From: the human T2T-CHM13v2.0 reference genome, Homo sapiens
Direction: 5' to 3' (one strand)
Assembly: GCF_009914755.1 (NCBI RefSeq)
Contig: NC_060946.1
Length of the DNA: 64,000 nucleotides
Shown here: positions 1-10,220 of the stretch, one piece after another
Layout: each line of letters starts with the position of its first letter
Numbering within the stretch: position 1 is the stretch's first letter
Notes under the pieces: generated by a model
The model's input: only the letters and a program-made list of their open reading frames with translations
Database searches by the model: none
What the model was told of the DNA's origin: nothing
Made by a program: the position numbers and the translations under genes

Positions 1-1339
1 TCTTTCACCATGGGGTGCCTGAAGGGTGGCTGATGCATATGGTACAATGGCACCCAGTGTAAAGCAGCTACAATTAGGAGTGGATGTGTTCTGTAGCATC
101 CTATTTAAATAAGCCTATTTTATCCTTTGGCCCGTCAACTCTGTTATCTGCTGCTTGTACTGGTGCCTGTACTTTTCTGACTCTCATTGACCATATTCCA
201 CGACCATGGTTGTCATCCATTACTTGATCCTACTTTACATGTCTAGTCTGTGTGGTTGGTGGTGAATAGGCTTCTTTTTACATGGTGCTGCCAGCCCAGC
301 TAATTAATGGTGCACGTGGACTTTTAGCAAGCGGGCTCACTGGAAGAGACTGAACCTGGCATGGAATTCCTGAAGATGTTTGGGGTTTTTTTCTTTCTTA
401 ATCGAAAGTTAACATTGTCTGAAAAGTTTTGTTAGAACTACTGCGGAACCTCAAAATCAGTAGATTTGGAAGTGATTCAAAGCTAAACTTTTTCCTTGGC
501 CCTCCTTGTGTTCTAATTGCTTGCAAGTGTAATACTAGGATGTCCAAGATGCCAGTTTTTGCTTCTTTGTTAGTTGTCAGCTGCTTTTATCAAATTTCAG
601 GCCATTATCCAACAAACACTATAAAAATGTTTGAACAATTGGATTTCAAACATTTTCGTTTTGTGGAGTGGTGCTCACCAAGTGGTACAGCCCTAAGCAA
701 GTGAACACAAACACATTTAAGTGTATTTTGTCTGATTAGATGTTAGCCAGTTATGCTATTTCATTCAAATGTCTGAAAAAATCAATTGACTATTCCCTTT
801 TCCTAAAGGGCAGAGACAGATAATCTCACTTCCAGAGAAATGACTTGGAGAAAAAAAAGTGTTGGTCTTTTTGCTCTTTTGTAATTAAATCCGGATGTAC
901 CTCAAAAGACTTAAGACTGTGGTGATAAGATGCTTTCCTCAGCAGAAAGGAGGGAAAAAAAACAACTGGAACTCAAAGCTTGAAATTCTGTGGCAAAACA
1001 TGAGATGTCCAGGATTGGAGGTTGAAAAGATTTCACTACAGTGTTCTGCAATAGTTGGAGCAGATAACTTTCAGTGTAGCCACAGCCATGGACTCCAGAT
1101 TTCCAGATTTTCAAGACCTGGACCTGGAACCCGAAAGAGCTTGTCACGATGCGGCAGGAACACTGGAGGTAGATTTTTTTTTATTTTTGAATTTTGGGAC
1201 TGTTGACCTTGCTGTGAGAAAAGAGACAACGACTGAGCAAGCACTACCACCAGCACTGTTACTGGGAATTAGAAGACCTGAGTTTCTGTCCAGACCCTCA
1301 GTGCAAACTGAGGATGCTCCATCCAAAGTGAATTATGGT

Positions 1340-1700
1340 ACTTGCCATTTTCCAAAATGCCTTATCCTTTACCATCTCTGCACTTTTGTTCATACTCTCA
1401 TTCTACTTTGGAACTGCTGCTCTGTGGCTTTTCATCTGTCAAAACTGCCATTTTCTCAGTATCCAACTCTTATGCCCTCTTTTCCATGAGTCTCCTAACT
1501 AGCCAGAATAGAGCTTTAAAGTTTTATGACATTTCGTTATGTATCCTCTATCTGTATACAAAATCCTGTAAAATAGTTACTTGCCTGCATTTACTGTCTT
1601 TGCAGATAGCAGACTCCTTGAAAGCAGGGTCCTTGTTTAGTGCATCTTTGCCCACATACACCACAACTTATCAAGATGCATTTATTAGGAAGGAGGAGTT
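1340..1700 (+). mobile_element. L2 LINE 3' fragment in TUG1 intron 1
   Basis: Resembles the L2 3' region (ctctgcacttttgttcatact..., agactccttgaaagcagggtccttgtttagtgcatctttg). Confidence 0.55.
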
Positions 1701-1730
1701 TAGAGAGCAGGCTATCAGAATAACCACTCA
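1606..1730 (+). other. TUG1: Candidate 125-nt cassette exon within TUG1 intron 1 (largely L2-derived)
   Basis: Acceptor ttactgtctttgcAG| ending at 1605; strong donor TCA|GTAAGT at 1731. Confidence 0.6.
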
Positions 1731-2412
1731 GTAAGTGTTTTCTTAATTGCTATGTGATAACTTACATTACTCTTAATGAGGAGAAAAGTCGCTAGATATG
1801 GATCATGTTTATGTTTTAATGTTTTTTAATTCTAAATTTTGATCTAGGGAGCCCTCAGACATAAGGAGAAACCAATATGTTGAATGATGGGGTATTACAT
1901 ACAGAAGGACCAAGACCTTATTTTCTCCTACTTAAGATGGAATCTTGTTAAGATGAAAGGACAGCTTTTTAAAAGGAGAAGGTCATAAGACAGTTTGAGG
2001 AAGGCATTGGAAGAGGAAGAGGGGCAATGTCTCCTTTGTTTTATTGTTGGTATATAAACTTAAAATCTCAGTTCTTTTTATGGCACTTGTGGAGCCACTT
2101 CCTCTCCTCACCAAAAAATGCCCAGTACCCTGAATCCGATCAAATTACTCTCCTAAAGTATAAGGCTTAGTTTCTGTGTGCTGCTTCGCGAGACAGTTCC
2201 CACAAATCGAGAGTGTTAATCAGACTTTTGTGTTTTCTTTTTTGGATTGCTGTTGTTTGTTTTCATTTATCATTTGTCTTTGCCTAAGCCAGGCTCATCA
2301 AGAATTAACAGCCATCAGGCTGCCGATGTGCTGACAGCAGACCCACTTAGAGTCCTGTGTTTGTAATTCCATGCATTTGTTATTTTACCTGTTTTGTCCC
2401 TGCCCCTTCTAG

Positions 2413-3159
2413 TCCTGTGCCTCCTGATTGCTGAGTGTTCACCTGGACCTTCTGACTACCTTCCCTGTGCTATTCCATCAGCCTACAGACCTGGTACCTG
2501 GATTTTTGCCCGAGATGATTCCTACCACCTTACTACTGACGAAGACACCCATTCCAGTGGACCACTGTGACCCAGGAGGCATTCAGCCATCATGATGTGG
2601 CCTTTACCTCCACTCCTGTCTTGTTCTACCCAGATTCAGCACAGCCCTTTATAGTGAAGTCAGAGTCCTCAAGCCAAATAGCTAAAGCTGTTTTATCACA
2701 ACAAAGGCCTAGTTTGTTCCATGAGTGTGCATTTCATTTCTTCAGTTAAAGCCTTCAGAGACACACAATAAATTTGGACCAGGGGATTTTTTAGTTATTA
2801 ATGCTCTCTGAAGAAAGGCAACATCTTTTTGAGAGCAGCATTGGACCACACCCCACAATCTCAAATGATTGAAATTCATGAACATCTAGGATCCCATGAA
2901 GGTCACTGGACCCTGTTTTTTCTACTTCAAATCCTGTAGTAGCCTACTGAATGAGAAAACATATTCTGACCCATTGGGATCAAATCAAAGGCACAGTGAA
3001 CTCCTCATAGCATCTTCTTTGGAATTACTCAGGAACCAGAACTTTTTACACAAATGTAAGAAATTCTACCAAGGAGTCCCCTTACCTAACAGCATCTCAC
3101 AAGGCTGCACCAGATTCCAGAAAAGGCTTCTCTTGATACATCAAGGTAGAACCTCTATG
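2413..3159 (+). other. TUG1: TUG1 internal exon with alternative donors (ends at 3145 or 3159)
   Basis: Donors AAG|GTAGAA (3146) and ATG|GTAAAT (3160); next acceptor tattttttgtatttcAG| ending at 4729. Confidence 0.7.
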
Positions 3160-3169
3160 GTAAATCCCT

Positions 3170-3365
3170 CTGTTTATAATGCACTTTACAGTTTCAAAGC
3201 ACTTGTACGTACATTTATCTCAATTATCAAAATAACAGTGAATTATAATCCCTTTTTGGAAATGAGGGAATGTAAATTTTAAAAGTTAAGCAATTATCCA
3301 AGGTGACACAGCTGTGAAAGTGGTAGAGGCCAGGCTTTCTGACACCCAGTCCAGTACTCTGCTTG
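3170..3365 (-). mobile_element. MIR SINE in TUG1 intron 2
   Basis: MIR core-like gcactttacagtttcaaagcac...aatgagggaa...gttaagcaattatccaaggtgacacagct. Confidence 0.7.
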
Positions 3366-4756
3366 GAATTAGCCTCCATTTTACCCACAGTGTTAAAATG
3401 GCTGGGTATTGGGAACCTCAGGAAATTTTCCAGCTTCCTGATCTGGTGCCCCTAGTCACATAGGATGTGTGATCACGTGATAGCTACATCTGGACCAGAA
3501 TCCCATGGCAATATCCCACGGTTTAAGGGCATAATATCTCCGTGGTGGTAGATTGTCAAGTCAAAAACGGGACATGTTCTAACAGCAAAGCTACCCAATA
3601 TGAAACACAAAGCTACTTTTAGATTTTTTAAGACTTACTGATATTCCTGGACCCTAAGAGCTTGTCTATGGTCCTATCTTTGCAAACTAGTATTTACACA
3701 AAATGAGCCACCTGGTTTTTTTAAAGTCAGTATTGTGTGTGTGTGTGTAAATATGACATGGAGAAAGCTTCTGTTACCTAGTAAGATAGTAAAGTATGTA
3801 AGACATGGCCCTTCCCCCAGTCTACATTGAGGTATAGTGTATTAAAGGATCTCAGGAGACTTGCAGCAAATTACTACTGCTTCTGTGCTTAAATTCAGAA
3901 GTCTGAAAAAAAAAAAAAAAAAGACTTCTAGTAAAGAGTTCCATTTTGCTGTTTAACCCTTTGTGTCCTAAGTTTAATCAAACACAGAAGGATATTTTTT
4001 TGCATCATTCCATCTAATGGAATGCAGAAACTGCTCTAGAGCAGTATAACCAGTGCTTCCTGATTGCCAGCAGATTGCCCTGGACACCCCAGAATAAACA
4101 GCATCTTCAAAATCCCCCTTTCTCATACCTTCTTATTAATGGTTGAATTAGTATGTCTCTGTCATCTGAGAGTCTTGCATCTTGACCATTACCTTTATTT
4201 TCTGTCAAGGGAATCCCTAGAAGATGTATGGGGAGACATAGGAAAGGAATGGAAGAAAGTTAATTCACCCCAAATTGGATAAATTCCATGACATTTAGCA
4301 ATATACTTCTGTATCCCTAGAATTGTATCATAACTTTAGTTCAAGGACATTGCATCTCAGGTGGGTTAAGGAGGTTGGGAAGGGGAGAAAAGGGATGAGG
4401 AGATATTTTCTTGAGATTTATCTCCTTGAGATAATGCTTGAGAAGTCATCCAGCCATGGACTTCTTGGAGTAATACTTACAAAGAATTGGATGCATTTTG
4501 CATCCTTAGGCAAAAACCCCAGTGCTGTTACAACTGAAAATCATTAGCCTTGTTCTCTGATAGATACTTACAAGCCCAACTGCAGGCAATCAAAATTTAT
4601 AGCAGATGAGTTCTAACTCCATCAACCTGTAATGTGGTCCATCTTAGGGAAAGAATAGGAAAACACCTTGGTTTACCACAGGCTTTGCTTACAGTTTCTG
4701 CTTTCTGTGACCTATTTTTTGTATTTCAGCATTTTGTGACCGACTTATTCTTAGAT

Positions 4757-4972
4757 CATTGGTTTTCCAAAGGCTTTGTGGCCATGAAGCCCTTTGAGTG
4801 AAAACTGTGCAGAAGCCCAGAGTAAAAGTGAAGCTGCTCTGGATGAAGTAGTGAAGCAAGAGTAGGGGCCTGAATCCTGCTACAACTATCTTCCTTTACC
4901 ACCGTGGTGACACCTAAGGGGACTTCCTTACAACACCTTGAACTCTTCCGAACACAGTTTGAAAACCACTGC
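4757..4972. mobile_element. Short hAT-type (MER) DNA transposon in the TUG1 terminal exon
   Basis: Inverted termini cattggttttccaa ... tttgaaaaccactg, typical of hAT-Charlie MITEs. Confidence 0.5.
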
Positions 4973-6471
4973 CCCAGACAGCAATATGTTTGACCTGAAT
5001 GGCATTCCAATCTTTTCTGTACCTCCACTCAGCACAGTTCATGTTCAGTAGATGCTGAACATTCTTAGAAATACTGTGTGTGAACTTAGAAAAGTGCAAG
5101 AAGACAGGCATGTCTTTGACCCCAGGAATGATCATTTGCTGAAGATGGTGTCAAGTGAACCTAGATTAACAGCCCTCCACTCCAGATGGATATCCAGTGA
5201 TTCCTAGAATGGGATATAGCCAGAGAACAATTCTATGCACCCTACACTGACAGACTCCCTTAAGCAACACCAGATGCTCTACTGGTACTTGAAGTACATG
5301 ACTTTGAAGTCTTGACCCTCCATGAATACCTGAATTATCAGCAAGCGGGTTTTGAAGCTGGTGCCTCATTGAGGCCATATTAGAGCAACTTGTACATTTG
5401 ACCTCTTGTTATCAGCCATGGTACTCTACTTCGTGTGCAAGAGATAACTATGAAAGCCAAATTCAAATACTGGCAACATTTCCTAAAGGGGCTCAATATC
5501 TTATCATTCGTCTTCTTTTCCAAACTACACATCACTGTATGACTCAACCAGTAGCAGTTATATTGCCCCTTGGTTTTTATTCAGTTTAACTACTGTTTCC
5601 AAGATAAATGAGCTAATAAGCTTTAAAAAAAAAAAAAAAAAGGCTGAATTCTTTTTTCTTCATCACTGGCATATCTGCCTATTCTCCAGAATTATTATGA
5701 CTATTCAGCTCACTTTAACAGTTGAACTTCAAGCGACAATCTTTGAACACCCCTTCTCATGTGATTTAAAATGAAACCATTTGGAAAAGTTTCTTCTAGC
5801 CAGTAATAGATTTTTTTTTTAATTGCTCTGCCTTGTGCCGAGAGATGTTCTTTTAAGATGAATCTTTTGATGTCTGATACCACCAAATATAGGTGGTAGG
5901 GAGAGTTGGAGGCTGGCCCTTTGAGCAGGCCATTAGCTTACTTGCTGGGCATTTCCGATAGCTTATTGCCTACCTTTTTGCTGGAAACAAACTGATTTGA
6001 AAAACAAAATCTATGAAGACTGCAGCTAAGGATTTTATCGGTAGACTTAAGAGCTTTTGTCCTTGTGGATATTTTAGTGGAACCACATCAGTCTCAATAC
6101 TGTCATTTTACACTGACTCAGAGCAGCTGACTTCATTCCTTGCCATGATATATATTTAAGGCAGGCATTGTAACAGACATAAAGACAACTTATCTGTTTC
6201 AGCAGGAAGGATTCAGTTTATGAACTCTCAGACCAGATCATGTTGAACAAGGAGACTTTGATGTGTGTCATGAGAAAACTCATTCTTTACTTCCCAGTCA
6301 ATTTAAAGGCCAGCTATCCTGAGCTACTCGAATGAATGCACTGGTTAAACATTGGAAATAGTTTGTTTATATCCTTGTCTCTCTCTAGGCCAATTGTGAT
6401 TACATGACTCGACTCTACATCTCGTCAAACAAGGCCTAGGTCTGGTTGCTGTAGACTGCTCGCCCTCAACA

Positions 6472-6477
6472 AATAAA
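6472..6477 (+). terminator. Candidate proximal polyadenylation signal
   Basis: AATAAA followed by T-rich sequence (ccttgtat...attatttgtt). Confidence 0.45.
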
Positions 6478-7999
6478 ATCTGGTTGACTAGCCTCCTTGT
6501 ATATACAACTATTATTTGTTAAGAAGAAATTATCGTCAATTTTCTACTACCTTCCAATTGTCAGCTCTTTTTTTCCTCTCTGGTTTTTCCTATACTTTAC
6601 AGAAAAAGACATTGATCTATACTGCCATTCCCTCTAATCCTGCCATACTCAGTCAAAAGGAATGACTTAAGATGAAGATGATCATCTGCTCGAGTCTAAA
6701 ATATACATTGTATATAAGAATTGGTGATTAGAAAAGCAAAAAACCTAAAACTTAAATCTAGGAGTCTGTATACTGTCTCCATGTCTCCATGCCTCAGATC
6801 TCATCTAAATCTTTGAACAGCACCATTCAACCAATCTGAGGCCTTGACTTGCTTGTAAGATGATTCTCAGAGATCGGCTGAGTTAAAAAAGATGACGACT
6901 TGATTACCAAAGAAAGTAGGGCCAACTTTGACAAATCTGGCTCTGCTGACCCTGTCACTCCCAGATGTAGCATAGACTCCTAAACAGAACCTCAAGTCTG
7001 ATTGAGGATAAGGCCTTCTCCTGAGCTGAAAGTTCTTTGGCAGATGAGCAAGAAACTGAAAGCTGATGTACCTGACTGGCTCTGTAAGATCAGAAAACTG
7101 TATCCAGAATAAGCCCTATGGATTAACCCCTGAGTACCCAGAGTAAAAACTAATTTACAGAACTTCCTTATTGATCTGCTGGTTCTTCCAGATCATATTC
7201 TGGCTATTGGTATGGCTGGCCTTTCTGAAGGTACCCTGCTTGTCTATTTTCCTGACTCAGCTCTTGCCTGCCTTTTTCACATGTTGCTGCAATTAGACTC
7301 ACCGTGAGGACTACAGTCAATTTCAGTCTATCTTGTGCCCAATACAACAAGGATTTTTAATAGTAACAACCCACACCTCACCCACTAGGACTCAATGTTC
7401 ACAACAGGAAGGACCATTGCTGCATACTCCTTGACCAGCAACTTTTTTGAAGATATTTTTAAGTGCAGAGTAGGCCTCTATTCCTGTATGTAATTGTTCA
7501 TTTTCAGCACCTGGAACCTCATCTATCGGGTCTGGAAGGAATACAGCAGTTCGAAAGCCGCGTCCATTTCTCTCCTTCAGTAGTGCAGAAATGAGTCCGA
7601 TTCACCAGTACACACAGAACTGTACCAGTTCAACCTAGCAAAAGAAGAAAAGTTTCCACTGTACTTAAAATTTACAGCTGACTCAAATTGCCTCACAGAA
7701 TTATTTGATGTAGAAGGCTAGTTGTCTTACTTCAGATCAGCAGGACAGTTGGGCTCTCAGACTCATGACCACTGAGTTTGCTTGTGTTGAAACTGTGGTT
7801 TCATCCAACATATGCTATTGGACATGATTATTATTCCATTCAAATGGATTACAGACTTCTTGAGGACAGGACAAACTTATCTCTCATGGTGTTTTTTTAG
7901 AATACTTTTATAACCAAGGAAGAAACCATGCCAGCTGTTACCATTCAACTTCTTAAGCAGAGATTAAGCTTTTTCATATCTGTTCTTATCCTGGACATC

Positions 8000-8455
8000 A
8001 GTAGTTTTTAATTGCCCAGCATCCGTTCCATCTTGTAACAACTCCCTGATGTTTCTTAAAACCACCTCTTCCTATTTTCAGTCTGTGGTTTGGACAGTCT
8101 GACCCAACCTTGAGCTTTGTGGGTGAACATGTAATTCAGACCTCATCAATCAGCAAATCCATCTGAACTGTGGAGGAGAAGCTCTCTTTACTGAGGGTGC
8201 TTTAGCTTTGTAGGATGAAAACCTCAAACTAACAGGGCCTACCATGTAGAGAATGAAGCCAGTGCAGGGGAAAGCAGAGCCAAAATATGGAGAGACTTGA
8301 ATCCTGATGACAGCGTTTGTGCCCCTGGATCCAACCGTGCCTGAAGCTAGAATATCCCCTGGACTTTTCAGTTATGTGAACCAATAAATACCCTTTTTTG
8401 CTTAAGTTACTTTGAGTTGGGTTTCTGTTACTTGAAATTGAATCCACACTAATAT
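8000..8455 (+). mobile_element. MLT1-type MaLR LTR in the TUG1 3' end
   Basis: MLT1J/K-like 3' part: cctggatccaaccgtgcctgaagc...ttttcagttatgtgaaccaataaat...tttgagttgggtttctgttacttg. Confidence 0.6.
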
Positions 8456-8579
8456 ATCTACCAACATTGAGACTTGACAGATCCAAGTATTTATTAAGCT
8501 AGAGGTCATGGTCACTGAAATTACTTTCCAAAGTGGAAGACAAAATGAAACAGGAACTGAGGGAATATTTAAGATCCCA

Positions 8580-8945
8580 CAGAAGCGTAAAAATGACATG
8601 GTAGAAAGTAATAGAAAACCTAAATGTCTGTCATTAAAGGATAGGTTAAGGTGTGGTTCAGCCATATAGGAATATCTCGTATCTGTTAAAATGAATAAAG
8701 TACATTCATTGTGTATGGAAAAATGGCCATGATACATTAGGTGAAACAAGTTATTAATAGAAAAGTGTACAGTGTGAACTCATTTTAAAATGTGTGTGCT
8801 TATGTTTATAAATGCATAGAAAGGTCTATTCACAGCTTTCTTTGAACAGTGTAGATCACATGAAACTTTCAACTTTATACATTTCTGTATTAATATTTTA
8901 CACTACCCACATTATTTTTAAACTTTATTTTAAATAAAGAATTTT
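8580..8945 (+). mobile_element. Old L1M 3' end fragment at the TUG1 terminus
   Basis: aaacctaaatgtctgtca...ataggttaa...gccatat... followed by an AT-rich L1ME-like tail. Confidence 0.45.
8933..8938 (+). terminator. Distal polyadenylation signal of TUG1
   Basis: AATAAA followed about 20-30 nt later by U/GU-rich sequence (tttagtgcttactgtttg). Confidence 0.7.
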
Positions 8946-10220
8946 TAAAATTAAATTTAGTGCTTACTGTTTGACCTTGGCAAGTTATTCAACACTGAGC
9001 CTGTTTTATCAAATGATTTAAAATGCCTACTTTTATGTTAGTAAATATTAAATATAAATCATTCATTACTCAAGTTGACAGATTGCTATACCATTGCTTG
9101 TTTGAGAAACTCAGAGCTTAGTAATTGTTCCTTAGTTTTTTAAGCATGTCTCCTTCAAGTGAGTTTATTTGGATTATCAGAATTTTGTGGTTTTAAGGTT
9201 TATCAAAGATTATTCTAGTTCTTGACTGATGTTGATCTGCTAAGACTATTGCAGTATCCACATTAGGCAGAAAGCAGGGGGAAAGTCACTTTTTTTAAAA
9301 AAATCCTTGAAATATTCTGATGTCACTGCAATTAAGGTCAATAGTGACCTTTTCATTGCTAAATCCGTTACACCTGCATCTAATATGAACTTTCAGCAGC
9401 ACAGGTAACTCCCACCAGCTTCTTGAAACACTTCCCTTAAGTGCTATAATACTTTTAATTTTCTTTTCAACTTGCAGACTACTCCTTTATTGTAGGTTCT
9501 TCTCCCCATCATGTAAATATAGGTATAGTGGACATCCATTGCTTTGGCTTGCCAAAAATCACTTCCCCTTTACTTTAATCATAGATCCCCACTTATCCTT
9601 TAGAAAGCTGCTCCTTCCCATTCTGTGTGGTGGTAGTGGAAATGTAGATGACAGTACTCCGGCCTCATGCCCCCTGGCTGAGGTTTGAGCAATGCAAGCT
9701 CGTTCTGTCCCACAAGGACTTTGATTCTTAAGAAAGGTGACCACAAAGTGATCAGAGTTGAGTCATTCTGATCGTAGTGTTCTAAAGAAACCATTTAAAA
9801 GTTTATGAAAGGAGATCTCCAAAGTATGCTGGCTCCTATTCTCCAAGCCTGGTTGTCCAAGTTTTCCTTTGATTGTATAAACTACCACATAGCCTCCTTA
9901 AAATAAGTTTCCTTTTTGTCAGCCAAAATGGGTTTCTATTGCTGGTGACCAAATGACTGACTAATTACAGAAATGGAGGCCGGAGAGTTAAATGGTAGGC
10001 CTTTAACCCACAGGAACATATGGAGGATCTGGAATTGATTATTGTACTGAGACAGATAATGGCACCAGCTCTTGTTCTGTGTCCCTGGGAGGATAAATCT
10101 ACGAGTTAAGGGTGACAAAACAGTAATGATATCATTTCTTGTCATTTGGAATCGTGCCTGTTGAGAGTAGAATTTGGAGGGCCAGGTAATTGTTGACAAT
10201 AGGACAATTTAAAGTGGATA

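What the first reader, a model, noticed from the sequence alone, without database searches (positions are those of the whole stretch)
16..5510. TUG1 appears to be built on a near-complete fossil Ty3/Gypsy (Sushi-like) retrotransposon
Seen: manual translation of the + strand, allowing frameshifts and stops, gives more than 25 short motifs. They fall in the order Gag capsid (18-425), zinc knuckle (582-626), aspartic protease (881-1135), RT (1189-2550), RNase H (2549-2921), integrase (3386-4201, 5301-5365) and chromodomain (5443-5508). Established: PR-RT-RH-IN order plus a chromodomain defines chromoviral Ty3/Gypsy elements such as Sushi-ichi, the source of the domesticated PEG10/RTL1 (SIRH/RTL/MART) genes. 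Inference: TUG1 is an ancient Gypsy insertion, or a dead RTL-like gene, in sense orientation that was kept as a conserved lncRNA. I do not recall this being part of the standard description of TUG1, but I cannot search the literature.
Basis: partly seen in the sequence, partly recalled or inferred. Interest (0 to 1): 0.92.

Follow-up and report, generated by a model that had tools for sequence, protein, structure and literature searches.

The report
Gypsy pol fossil inside TUG1 exon 2
About 450 bases of exon 2 of the human long non-coding RNA gene TUG1 are a decayed piece of an ancient Gypsy-type retrotransposon's reverse-transcriptase/RNase H gene, but the rest of TUG1 shows no detectable trace of such an element.

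Summary
Window 2428/2494-2921 (+ strand, in TUG1 exon 2) is a broken Ty3/Gypsy pol remnant covering the RT thumb/connection and RNase H. Pfam RT_RNaseH_2 matches at E 2.7e-9, above its cut-off. A frameshift-aware alignment scores 107-189 against 24 Gypsy polyproteins, and an RNase H profile scores 180 against 31.9±4.8 for shuffles. The closest intact relatives are teleost and frog chromoviral Gypsy elements with a DUF4939-type Gag. Human ERV and RTL1-like loci score only 47-99.

The remnant has about five frameshifts and four in-frame stops, and its first catalytic Asp is replaced. It overlaps Rfam "TUG1 conserved region 3".

Gag, zinc knuckle, protease, integrase and chromodomain are at chance level in free and anchored tests, judged against shuffled, reversed, minus-strand and offset controls. 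An RT-palm candidate at 2054-2265 passes one test and fails another.

TUG1 therefore holds an exonised Gypsy pol fragment, not a near-complete element. I found no published TUG1 repeat annotation that lists it.

The parts
2428..2921 (+). Ty3/Gypsy pol remnant: end of RT (thumb/connection) plus RNase H. The firm core is 2494-2921. The stretch 2428-2493 aligns only with references whose gene models lack about 45 residues of the thumb.
   Evidence: Frameshift-aware alignments: P0170 scores 189 over 2428-2921, with 66 of 179 columns identical and 5 frameshifts. Twelve other references score 130-176 and start at 2473-2526. The RNase H profile scores 180 against 31.9±4.8 for shuffles, 0 of 60 reaching it.
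2540..2746 (+). Longest unbroken piece of the remnant: 69 codons in frame 2, with no ATG. The position that is the first catalytic Asp in the references is Glu at 2663-2665.
   Evidence: Pfam PF17919 at E 2.7e-9. phmmer against 1.84 billion proteins gave 184 hits at E<=1e-3. These are TUG1-like translations followed by Gypsy polyproteins.
2413..3145 (+). TUG1 exon 2, which hosts the remnant. The remnant fills 427-494 of its 733 bases. The alternative acceptor at 2482 lies inside the remnant.
   Evidence: Hub annotation table, and the sequence read (AG at 2411-2412, GT at 3146-3147).
2415..2651 (+). Rfam RF01891, 'TUG1 conserved region 3', which overlaps the 5' half of the remnant.
   Evidence: cmscan: 246.4 bits, E 4e-48.
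2054..2265 (+). Unconfirmed candidate for the RT palm, in intron 1.
   Evidence: The RT profile scores 46 here. Anchored to the RNase H block, 0 of 300 shuffles reach it at ±30 or ±60 nt, and 6 of 816 sliding real-DNA controls reach it. However, four closest-family references give nothing: sum 104 against 122.5±20.1, with 411 of 490 controls at or above it. The alignment is also ambiguous between two RT motifs.

Best explanation
An ancient Ty3/Gypsy retroelement of the vertebrate chromovirus kind left a sense-oriented fragment of its pol gene between MORC2 and SMTN. The detectable part is about 430-490 bases, covering the RT thumb/connection and RNase H. It now forms the 5' two-thirds of TUG1 exon 2, including the alternative acceptor and Rfam conserved region 3.

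Shown: it cannot encode a protein. It has about five frameshifts, four stops in the main frame and a replaced catalytic residue.

Inferred: it survives in recognisable form because the exon is held by selection on the RNA or DNA of TUG1, not on a protein. It therefore acts, if at all, as a transposon-derived RNA domain of the lncRNA. The other parts of TUG1 (exon 1, exon 3 and the 5' ORF region) are not demonstrably Gypsy-derived.
For: - Identity of the fragment: Pfam RT_RNaseH_2 lies above its cut-off. tblastn gives 41 HSPs of up to 57.8 bits, against controls of at most 27.3 bits. Frameshift-aware scores are 107-189 for 24 Gypsy references. The RNase H profile scores 180 against 31.9±4.8 for shuffles.
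- Gypsy rather than ERV: 41 human RT_RNaseH_2-type loci score 47-99, including the chr14 locus with a 1377-codon frame that I take to be RTL1, at 75. No human paralogue is better than E 0.01. The best PDB match is MLV-type RT at E 0.86.
- Nearest relatives: Hemibagrus, carp, killifish and frog Gypsy polyproteins with DUF4939, Ty3_capsid, RVT_1, RNase H, integrase, SH3_Tf2-1 and Chromo domains.
- Broken frame: five frameshifts on the alignment path and four stops in frame 2 between 2747 and about 2885.
- Held in mammals: all 19 hits at E<=1e-3, of 36 candidates, are TUG1-like translations of 72-100% identity, among them polar bear and donkey entries. Different species break the frame at different places.
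- Rfam TUG1_3 overlaps the remnant.
Against: - The RNA-domain function is not tested here. Conservation could reflect DNA-level constraint instead.
- I could not see RepeatMasker/Dfam tracks or non-human genomes, so the age is bounded only by the named polar bear and donkey entries.
- Introns are only 52.2% identical between human and mouse (passage read in PMC8175569). A once-longer element lying in the introns could therefore have decayed beyond detection.
- One profile test hints at more RT upstream.
Confidence: 0.85

Rival explanations
1. One reading: the whole of 16-5510 is one near-complete Gypsy element (Gag, zinc knuckle, protease, RT, RNase H, integrase, chromodomain) on which TUG1 was built.
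For: - The RNase H block is real and in the sense orientation.
- A full polyprotein of the closest family (P0177, 1316 aa), laid collinearly on the anchor, would span roughly window 650-4590. That is the same order of size as the claim.
- The RT profile hints at 2054-2265.
- Introns are poorly conserved, so a loss of signal there is expected.
Against: - Exon 1 holds conserved blocks (Rfam TUG1_1 at 563-707 and TUG1_2 at 854-940) exactly where the zinc knuckle and protease were claimed. They give no Pfam or alignment signal.
- Free tests: upstream maximum 58 against a mean shuffle maximum of 59.9, with 23 of 40 shuffles at or above it. Downstream maximum 67, with 6 of 30 shuffles at or above it.
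- Anchored tests: downstream sum 449 against 446±26. Integrase profile 31, with 266 of 798 controls at or above it.
- An upstream excess over shuffles (383 against 325±19) vanished against offset bands (346-395) and reversed proteins (312-373).
- No signature motifs and no LTR-like direct repeats of 40 bases or more in 1-9000.
Confidence: 0.05
2. A dead domesticated gene: a Gypsy pol-derived (RTL1-like) host gene once coded for protein here, lost its frame, and was kept as a lncRNA.
For: - The remnant is in the sense orientation and is embedded in an exon.
- The locus is single-copy, with no paralogue in the human genome better than E 0.01.
- RTL1 shows that pol-containing Gypsy genes can be domesticated (chr14 locus; its identity as RTL1 is inferred).
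Against: - No open frame longer than 69 codons.
- The frame is broken differently in different mammals.
- No Gag part, which is what most RTL genes keep.
- Nothing here separates this reading from plain exonisation of a dead insertion.
Confidence: 0.05
3. The fragment comes from an endogenous retrovirus pol gene, not from Gypsy.
For: PF17919 also matches human ERV pol: at least 150 loci above the cut-off, out of 2250 first-look candidates. MLV-type RT is the only PDB match.
Against: - ERV-type human loci score 47-99 against 107-189 for Gypsy references in the same alignment.
- The long non-TUG1 hits I scanned from the 1.84-billion-protein search have Gypsy architectures (26 scanned with Pfam, 24 of them Gypsy-type, 9 with Chromo). 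The rest of the 150 listed were not checked.
- The PDB match is not significant (E 0.86).
Confidence: 0.03

Closest known systems
Vertebrate chromoviral Ty3/Gypsy elements (teleost and frog polyproteins such as Hemibagrus guttatus P0133/P0170/P0177; 'Sushi-like' in having a DUF4939-type Gag)
   Same: The RT thumb/connection and RNase H align collinearly at 37-41% identity (66 of 179 and 59 of 144 columns). This family gives the best scores of all references tried (158-189).
   Different: Those elements carry Gag, protease, full RT, integrase, SH3 and chromodomain. The window shows none of these. The TUG1 piece is frame-broken, single-copy and exonic. No named Sushi-ichi reference was available, so 'Sushi-like' rests on the Gag type of the relatives.
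RTL1/PEG11 and the RTL/SIRH/MART domesticated Gypsy genes
   Same: Gypsy-derived sequence kept at a fixed host locus in mammals. RTL1 keeps an RNase H-like part: the chr14 locus matches PF17919 at 80 bits.
   Different: RTL genes have long intact ORFs (a 1377-codon frame at that locus). The TUG1 piece has none. It resembles fish elements more than that locus (189 against 75). The identification of the chr14 locus as RTL1 is my inference from its position and length.
RIDLs: exapted transposon fragments as domains of lncRNAs (Johnson & Guigo 2014, PMC4114693; Carlevaro-Fita 2019, PMC6360812)
   Same: A transposon-derived, conserved, exonic segment of a lncRNA. TUG1 is already their example for Charlie15a/k and MLT1K (passages read).
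   Different: Here the source is the coding interior of an LTR element rather than a short non-autonomous repeat or an LTR. It is not in the repeat lists that those papers and Kapusta 2013 give for TUG1.
Rfam RF01891, TUG1 conserved region 3
   Same: The same bases: 2415-2651, a full-length model match.
   Different: Rfam describes it as a conserved lncRNA region. The call output gives no statement of origin.

Membership tests
Ty3/Gypsy LTR retrotransposon (as a complete or near-complete element) | RT-RNase H connection and RNase H domain of the Gypsy type, collinear on one strand | tested here: met
   PF17919 lies above its cut-off. Frameshift-aware alignment over 2428/2494-2921 scores 107-189. 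Controls score about 32.
Ty3/Gypsy LTR retrotransposon (as a complete or near-complete element) | RT fingers/palm (RVT_1, YxDD box) upstream of the RNase H | tested here: inconclusive
   No RVT_1 hit and no YxDD pattern. The RT profile scores 46 at 2054-2265 and is significant only when anchored. Four closest-family references give a null result.
Ty3/Gypsy LTR retrotransposon (as a complete or near-complete element) | Integrase (H2C2 zinc finger plus rve core) downstream of the RNase H | tested here: not met
   No Pfam hit. Integrase profile 40, with 25 of 60 shuffles at or above it. Anchored score 31, with 266 of 798 controls at or above it. Twelve references anchored: sum 449 against 446±26.
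Ty3/Gypsy LTR retrotransposon (as a complete or near-complete element) | Gag/capsid with CCHC knuckle, and aspartic protease, upstream | tested here: not met
   No Pfam hit in 1-9000 or in the 3 kb upstream. Full-length closest-family references do no better than the minus strand or reversed proteins. No CCHC or D[ST]G[AS] pattern.
Ty3/Gypsy LTR retrotransposon (as a complete or near-complete element) | Flanking LTRs | tested here: not met
   No direct repeat of 40 bases or more in 1-9000. This is a weak test for an element this old, and only this span was searched.
Chromovirus (Gypsy with a C-terminal chromodomain) | Chromodomain after the integrase | tested here: not met
   SH3/chromo profile 36, with 48 of 60 shuffles at or above it. 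No Pfam Chromo hit. Only the nearest relatives carry one.
Domesticated RTL/SIRH/MART gene | Intact ORF kept under coding constraint | tested here: not met
   The longest open piece is 69 codons with no ATG. There are about 5 frameshifts and 4 stops. Codon-level constraint across species could not be computed here.
RIDL / exapted transposon domain of a lncRNA | Transposon-derived, inside a mature exon, conserved across species | tested here: met
   Derivation. Exon 2 position: hub table. Conservation: 72-100% identity in 19 TUG1-like translations and the Rfam TUG1_3 match.
RIDL / exapted transposon domain of a lncRNA | The segment contributes a function of the RNA | not testable with these tools
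   This needs deletion or mutation of 2428-2921 in TUG1 with localisation or phenotype read-outs.

The most novel reading that the evidence does not exclude
The TUG1 transcription unit was seeded by a sense-oriented chromoviral Gypsy insertion, or by a short-lived pol-derived host gene, between MORC2 and SMTN. The RT/RNase H-coding stretch was then recruited as a structured RNA domain (Rfam TUG1_3) of one of the most conserved mammalian lncRNAs. On this reading, retroelement coding sequence rather than a repeat terminus is the raw material of a core TUG1 domain.
Probability: 0.1. Interest if true: 0.7.

Novelty: new member of a known kind. Interest (0 to 1): 0.4.

Why it matters
TUG1 is among the most studied and most conserved lncRNAs. 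The surveys I could read name only L2c, Charlie15a/k and MLT1K as its transposon content.

Showing that most of exon 2, including one of the four Rfam conserved regions, is a fossil of Gypsy RT/RNase H coding sequence does three things. It gives a concrete origin for that exon. It gives a datable marker, namely presence or absence of the fragment in the MORC2-SMTN interval of other vertebrates. It also gives a defined segment to delete when testing TUG1 domains.

It does not change what kind of thing TUG1 is, because exonised ancient transposon fragments in lncRNAs are common. The stronger claim of a near-complete element does not hold.

Tried and rejected
- Pfam on ORFs, on whole frames with stops read as X, on 18 TUG1-like translations from other mammals, and on the 3 kb upstream including the 5' ORF region. 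Only RT_RNaseH_2 was found.
- PDB sequence search: nothing significant.
- DNA search of the human genome with exon 2: only itself.
- Protein search of the human genome with the 69-residue piece: only weak ERV-type hits.
- Search of the human genome with P0133: it ran with a stricter filter and did not list TUG1, so it says nothing about other Gypsy fossils.
- An apparent collinear excess upstream (383 against shuffles 325±19, 0 of 40 reaching it) was rejected. Offset bands on the real DNA and reversed proteins score the same.
- A weak RT-like hit at 4434-4759 (profile score 51 with 8 frameshifts, 7 of 60 shuffles at or above it; P0096 at 27.3 bits) was rejected as chance.
- An H-x4-H...C-x2-C pattern at 3093 spans two stops, and 74 of 200 shuffles have such a pattern.
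- The search for homologous proteins with the short ORF returned only TUG1-like entries, not named Gypsy relatives.
- The search of earlier findings was not open.
- No tree was built. Clade placement rests on scores and on the domain content of relatives.
Full report
**What was claimed.** The proposal rested on more than 25 hand-found short motifs. By the hub's table, this span is the 3' part of TUG1 exon 1, intron 1, exon 2 (2413-3145), intron 2 and the start of exon 3.

**Check with curated profiles.** I scanned every stop-to-stop ORF of 25 or more codons starting before 5700 against Pfam at E up to 10. There were 71 on the + strand and 70 on the - strand.
- One family passed its cut-off: RT_RNaseH_2 (PF17919) on ORF 2540-2746, + strand, frame 2. 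It scored E 2.7e-9 and 37.4 bits against a cut-off of 29.8, covering profile positions 1-60 of 100.
- The - strand gave nothing above any cut-off.
- Reading the six whole frames of 1-9000 with stops as X gave the same single hit. It extended across a stop to about 2776.
- No RVT_1, rve, Integrase_H2C2, Chromo, Gag, zf-CCHC or protease model matched.

**Relatives.**
- phmmer of the 69-residue piece against 1.84 billion representatives gave 184 hits at E<=1e-3.
- The top hits are translations of TUG1 itself from other mammals, some with TGA read as W.
- The long non-TUG1 hits I scanned are Gypsy-type polyproteins. Of 27 scanned with Pfam, P0006 is unrelated and was dropped before tblastn. P0047 and P0040 lack clear RT/integrase calls, and 24 show RVT_1, RNase H and/or integrase.
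- tblastn of the 26 long references against 1-9000 put 41 of the 42 + strand HSPs of 25 bits or more in 2540-2875, frame 2, with a best of 57.8 bits. The other HSP is at 4544-4759 with 27.3 bits, equal to the best control.
- The reversed sequence and five dinucleotide shuffles gave at most 27.3 bits.

**Extent and state of the remnant.** No frameshift-aware aligner is installed, so I wrote one. It uses BLOSUM62 or profile scores, a gap cost of 6 and a frameshift cost of 10.
- Twelve references align from 2473-2526 to 2753-3075 with scores of 130-176.
- Eight full-length polyproteins of the closest family score 158-189.
- The best, P0170, covers 2428-2921 with 66 of 179 columns identical and five frameshifts. 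The stretch 2428-2493 depends on references whose gene models lack about 45 residues of the RT thumb. The firm core is therefore 2494-2921.
- A profile built from ten RNase H segments scores 180. Sixty shuffles score 31.9±4.8, the minus strand 32 and the reversed sequence 26.
- Frame 2 has four stops between 2747 and about 2885.
- The first catalytic Asp of the references is Glu at 2663-2665.

**Gypsy or ERV.** PF17919 also matches human ERV pol: 150 loci were scored above the cut-off, out of 2250 candidates.
- In the same aligner, 41 such human loci score 47-99 against the TUG1 stretch. These include the chr14 locus with a 1377-codon frame, which I take to be RTL1 and which scores 75. Gypsy references score 107-189.
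- The human genome holds no paralogue of the 69-residue piece better than E 0.01 and no second DNA copy of exon 2.
- The family of the best reference is named in public records as Gypsy integrase-like or Tf2-type polyproteins of Hemibagrus guttatus, carp, killifish and frogs.
- Its complete members carry DUF4939, Retrotrans_gag, Ty3_capsid, protease, RVT_1, RNase H, integrase, SH3_Tf2-1 and Chromo.

So 'chromoviral, Sushi-like' is a fair description of the relatives. It is not a property shown in the window itself.

**Beyond the block, free tests.**
- Upstream (1-2472), the N-terminal parts of 13 references give a maximum of 58. The mean shuffle maximum is 59.9, and 23 of 40 shuffles reach 58.
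- Downstream (2922-6000), the C-terminal parts of 10 references give a maximum of 67, reached by 6 of 30 shuffles. Their sum is 527 against 489.5±26.8.
- Profile scores are as follows.

| Profile | Score | Shuffles at or above it |
|---|---|---|
| RT | 46 | 3 of 60 |
| Integrase | 40 | 25 of 60 |
| SH3/chromo | 36 | 48 of 60 |

- The eight full-length closest-family references were run against the window plus 3 kb upstream. Their N- and C-terminal parts do no better than the minus strand or reversed proteins. The top N-terminal scores fall in the GC-rich promoter region.

**Beyond the block, tests anchored to the RNase H diagonal.**
- Downstream, 12 references sum to 449 against 446±26 at ±150 nt, and to 499 against 505±26 at ±450 nt.
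- The integrase profile scores 31, with 266 of 798 sliding real-DNA controls at or above it.
- Upstream of 2053, ten references summed to 383 against 325±19 for shuffles, with 0 of 40 reaching it. Offset bands on the real DNA gave 346-395 and reversed proteins gave 312-373. That excess is therefore composition, not homology.

**The RT-palm candidate at 2054-2265 is unresolved.**
- For it: 0 of 300 shuffles reach its score at ±30 or ±60 nt, and 6 of 816 sliding controls do.
- Against it: four closest-family references give 104 against 122.5±20.1, with 411 of 490 controls at or above it. Its key motif also aligns to two different RT boxes in different runs.
- I put it at roughly one in four.

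**Signature motifs.** No CCHC knuckle, D[ST]G[AS], YxDD or TDAS pattern occurs in any + frame of 16-5510. The claimed knuckle at 582-626 has one Cys and one His (the patterns are recalled).

**Context.**
- Rfam places its four TUG1 conserved regions as follows.

| Rfam region | Window coordinates |
|---|---|
| TUG1_1 | 563-707 |
| TUG1_2 | 854-940 |
| TUG1_3 | 2415-2651 |
| TUG1_4 | 2975-3155 |

- Region 3 is made of the Gypsy remnant. Regions 1 and 2 lie where the knuckle and protease were claimed. They are conserved yet show no retroelement similarity, which argues against attributing the negatives to decay alone.
- Introns are less conserved: 52.2% against 70.2% for exons between human and mouse (passage read in PMC8175569). 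A longer original insertion lying in the introns cannot be excluded.
- The 5' ORF region (TUG1-BOAT; passages read in PMC7487648) has no Pfam Gag hit.
- There are no LTR-like direct repeats of 40 bases or more in 1-9000.
- The remnant is present in other mammals. All 19 hits at E<=1e-3 are TUG1-like translations of 72-100% identity, including polar bear and donkey entries, and 6 of the 19 carry a precomputed PF17919 label.
- In my own scan, PF17919 matches 9 of 18 such translations at E<=0.02, and 4 of them above the cut-off. No other retroelement family appears.
- Frames are broken at different places in different species. This fits non-coding evolution.

**Literature.**

| Search terms | Papers found | Outcome |
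|---|---|---|
| TUG1 + Gypsy | 9 | Judged from the listing; passages read in one, which makes no link |
| TUG1 + MamGyp | 0 | Nothing found |
| TUG1 + Ty3 | 2 | Unrelated by title |

- Transposon surveys name only Charlie15a/k and MLT1K for TUG1 (passages read in PMC4114693, PMC6360812 and PMC3580499).
- Kapusta 2013's supplementary table lists L2c (24 nt, exon 1), Charlie15a (180 nt) and MLT1K (414 nt), the last two in exon 3, for TUG1-006. It lists nothing in exon 2.
- The main text of PMC7487648 has no occurrence of 'transposable' or 'retrotranspos'.
- I could not see RepeatMasker or Dfam tracks, so a silent database annotation remains possible.

**Verdict.** TUG1 exon 2 contains a genuine, sense-oriented, frame-dead fragment of a chromovirus-like Gypsy pol gene. 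By inference, it is kept because the lncRNA exon is constrained. This is a new example of a known phenomenon in a prominent gene. It is of moderate interest, well below the 0.92 first assigned.

Noticed in passing
proteins P0001-P0012, P0151-P0161: Public protein collections hold 'proteins' that are translations of TUG1 exon 1/2 RNA or DNA from mammals. Some have TGA read as W. Two are named as uncharacterised proteins of Ursus maritimus and Equus asinus, and six carry a precomputed PF17919 label. These are mis-annotated non-coding sequence.
   Followed up: partly
G000:C14:18613875-18616160 (loci L003, L053): Uninterrupted frames of 1000 and 1086 codons with RT_RNaseH_2 (69.8 bits) and integrase-like similarity to P0133 (58.9 bits), near the chr14 centromere side. 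This is an apparently intact pol-like ORF. I did not identify it.
   Followed up: no
window 4434-4759 (+): A weak RT-like alignment at the intron 2 / exon 3 border: profile score 51 with 8 frameshifts, and P0096 at 27.3 bits. It is at the level of controls (7 of 60 shuffles at or above it).
   Followed up: partly
window 3093 onward, frame 3 (+): An H-x4-H ... C-x2-C spacing lies about 57 codons after the RNase H end, near where an integrase zinc finger would sit. It spans two stop codons, and such a pattern occurs in 74 of 200 shuffles.
   Followed up: partly
proteins P0170, P0049, P0115: Several fish Gypsy gene models lack about 45 residues between two similar 'FLG' stretches of the RT thumb. 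In P0170, RVT_1 ends 23 residues before RT_RNaseH_2, against 64 residues in P0177. This makes their alignment to window 2428-2493 unreliable.
   Followed up: partly
window 3733-3750, 3906-3922, 5626-5641: A (TG)n microsatellite and two A-runs in intron 2 and exon 3, seen when reading the sequence.
   Followed up: no
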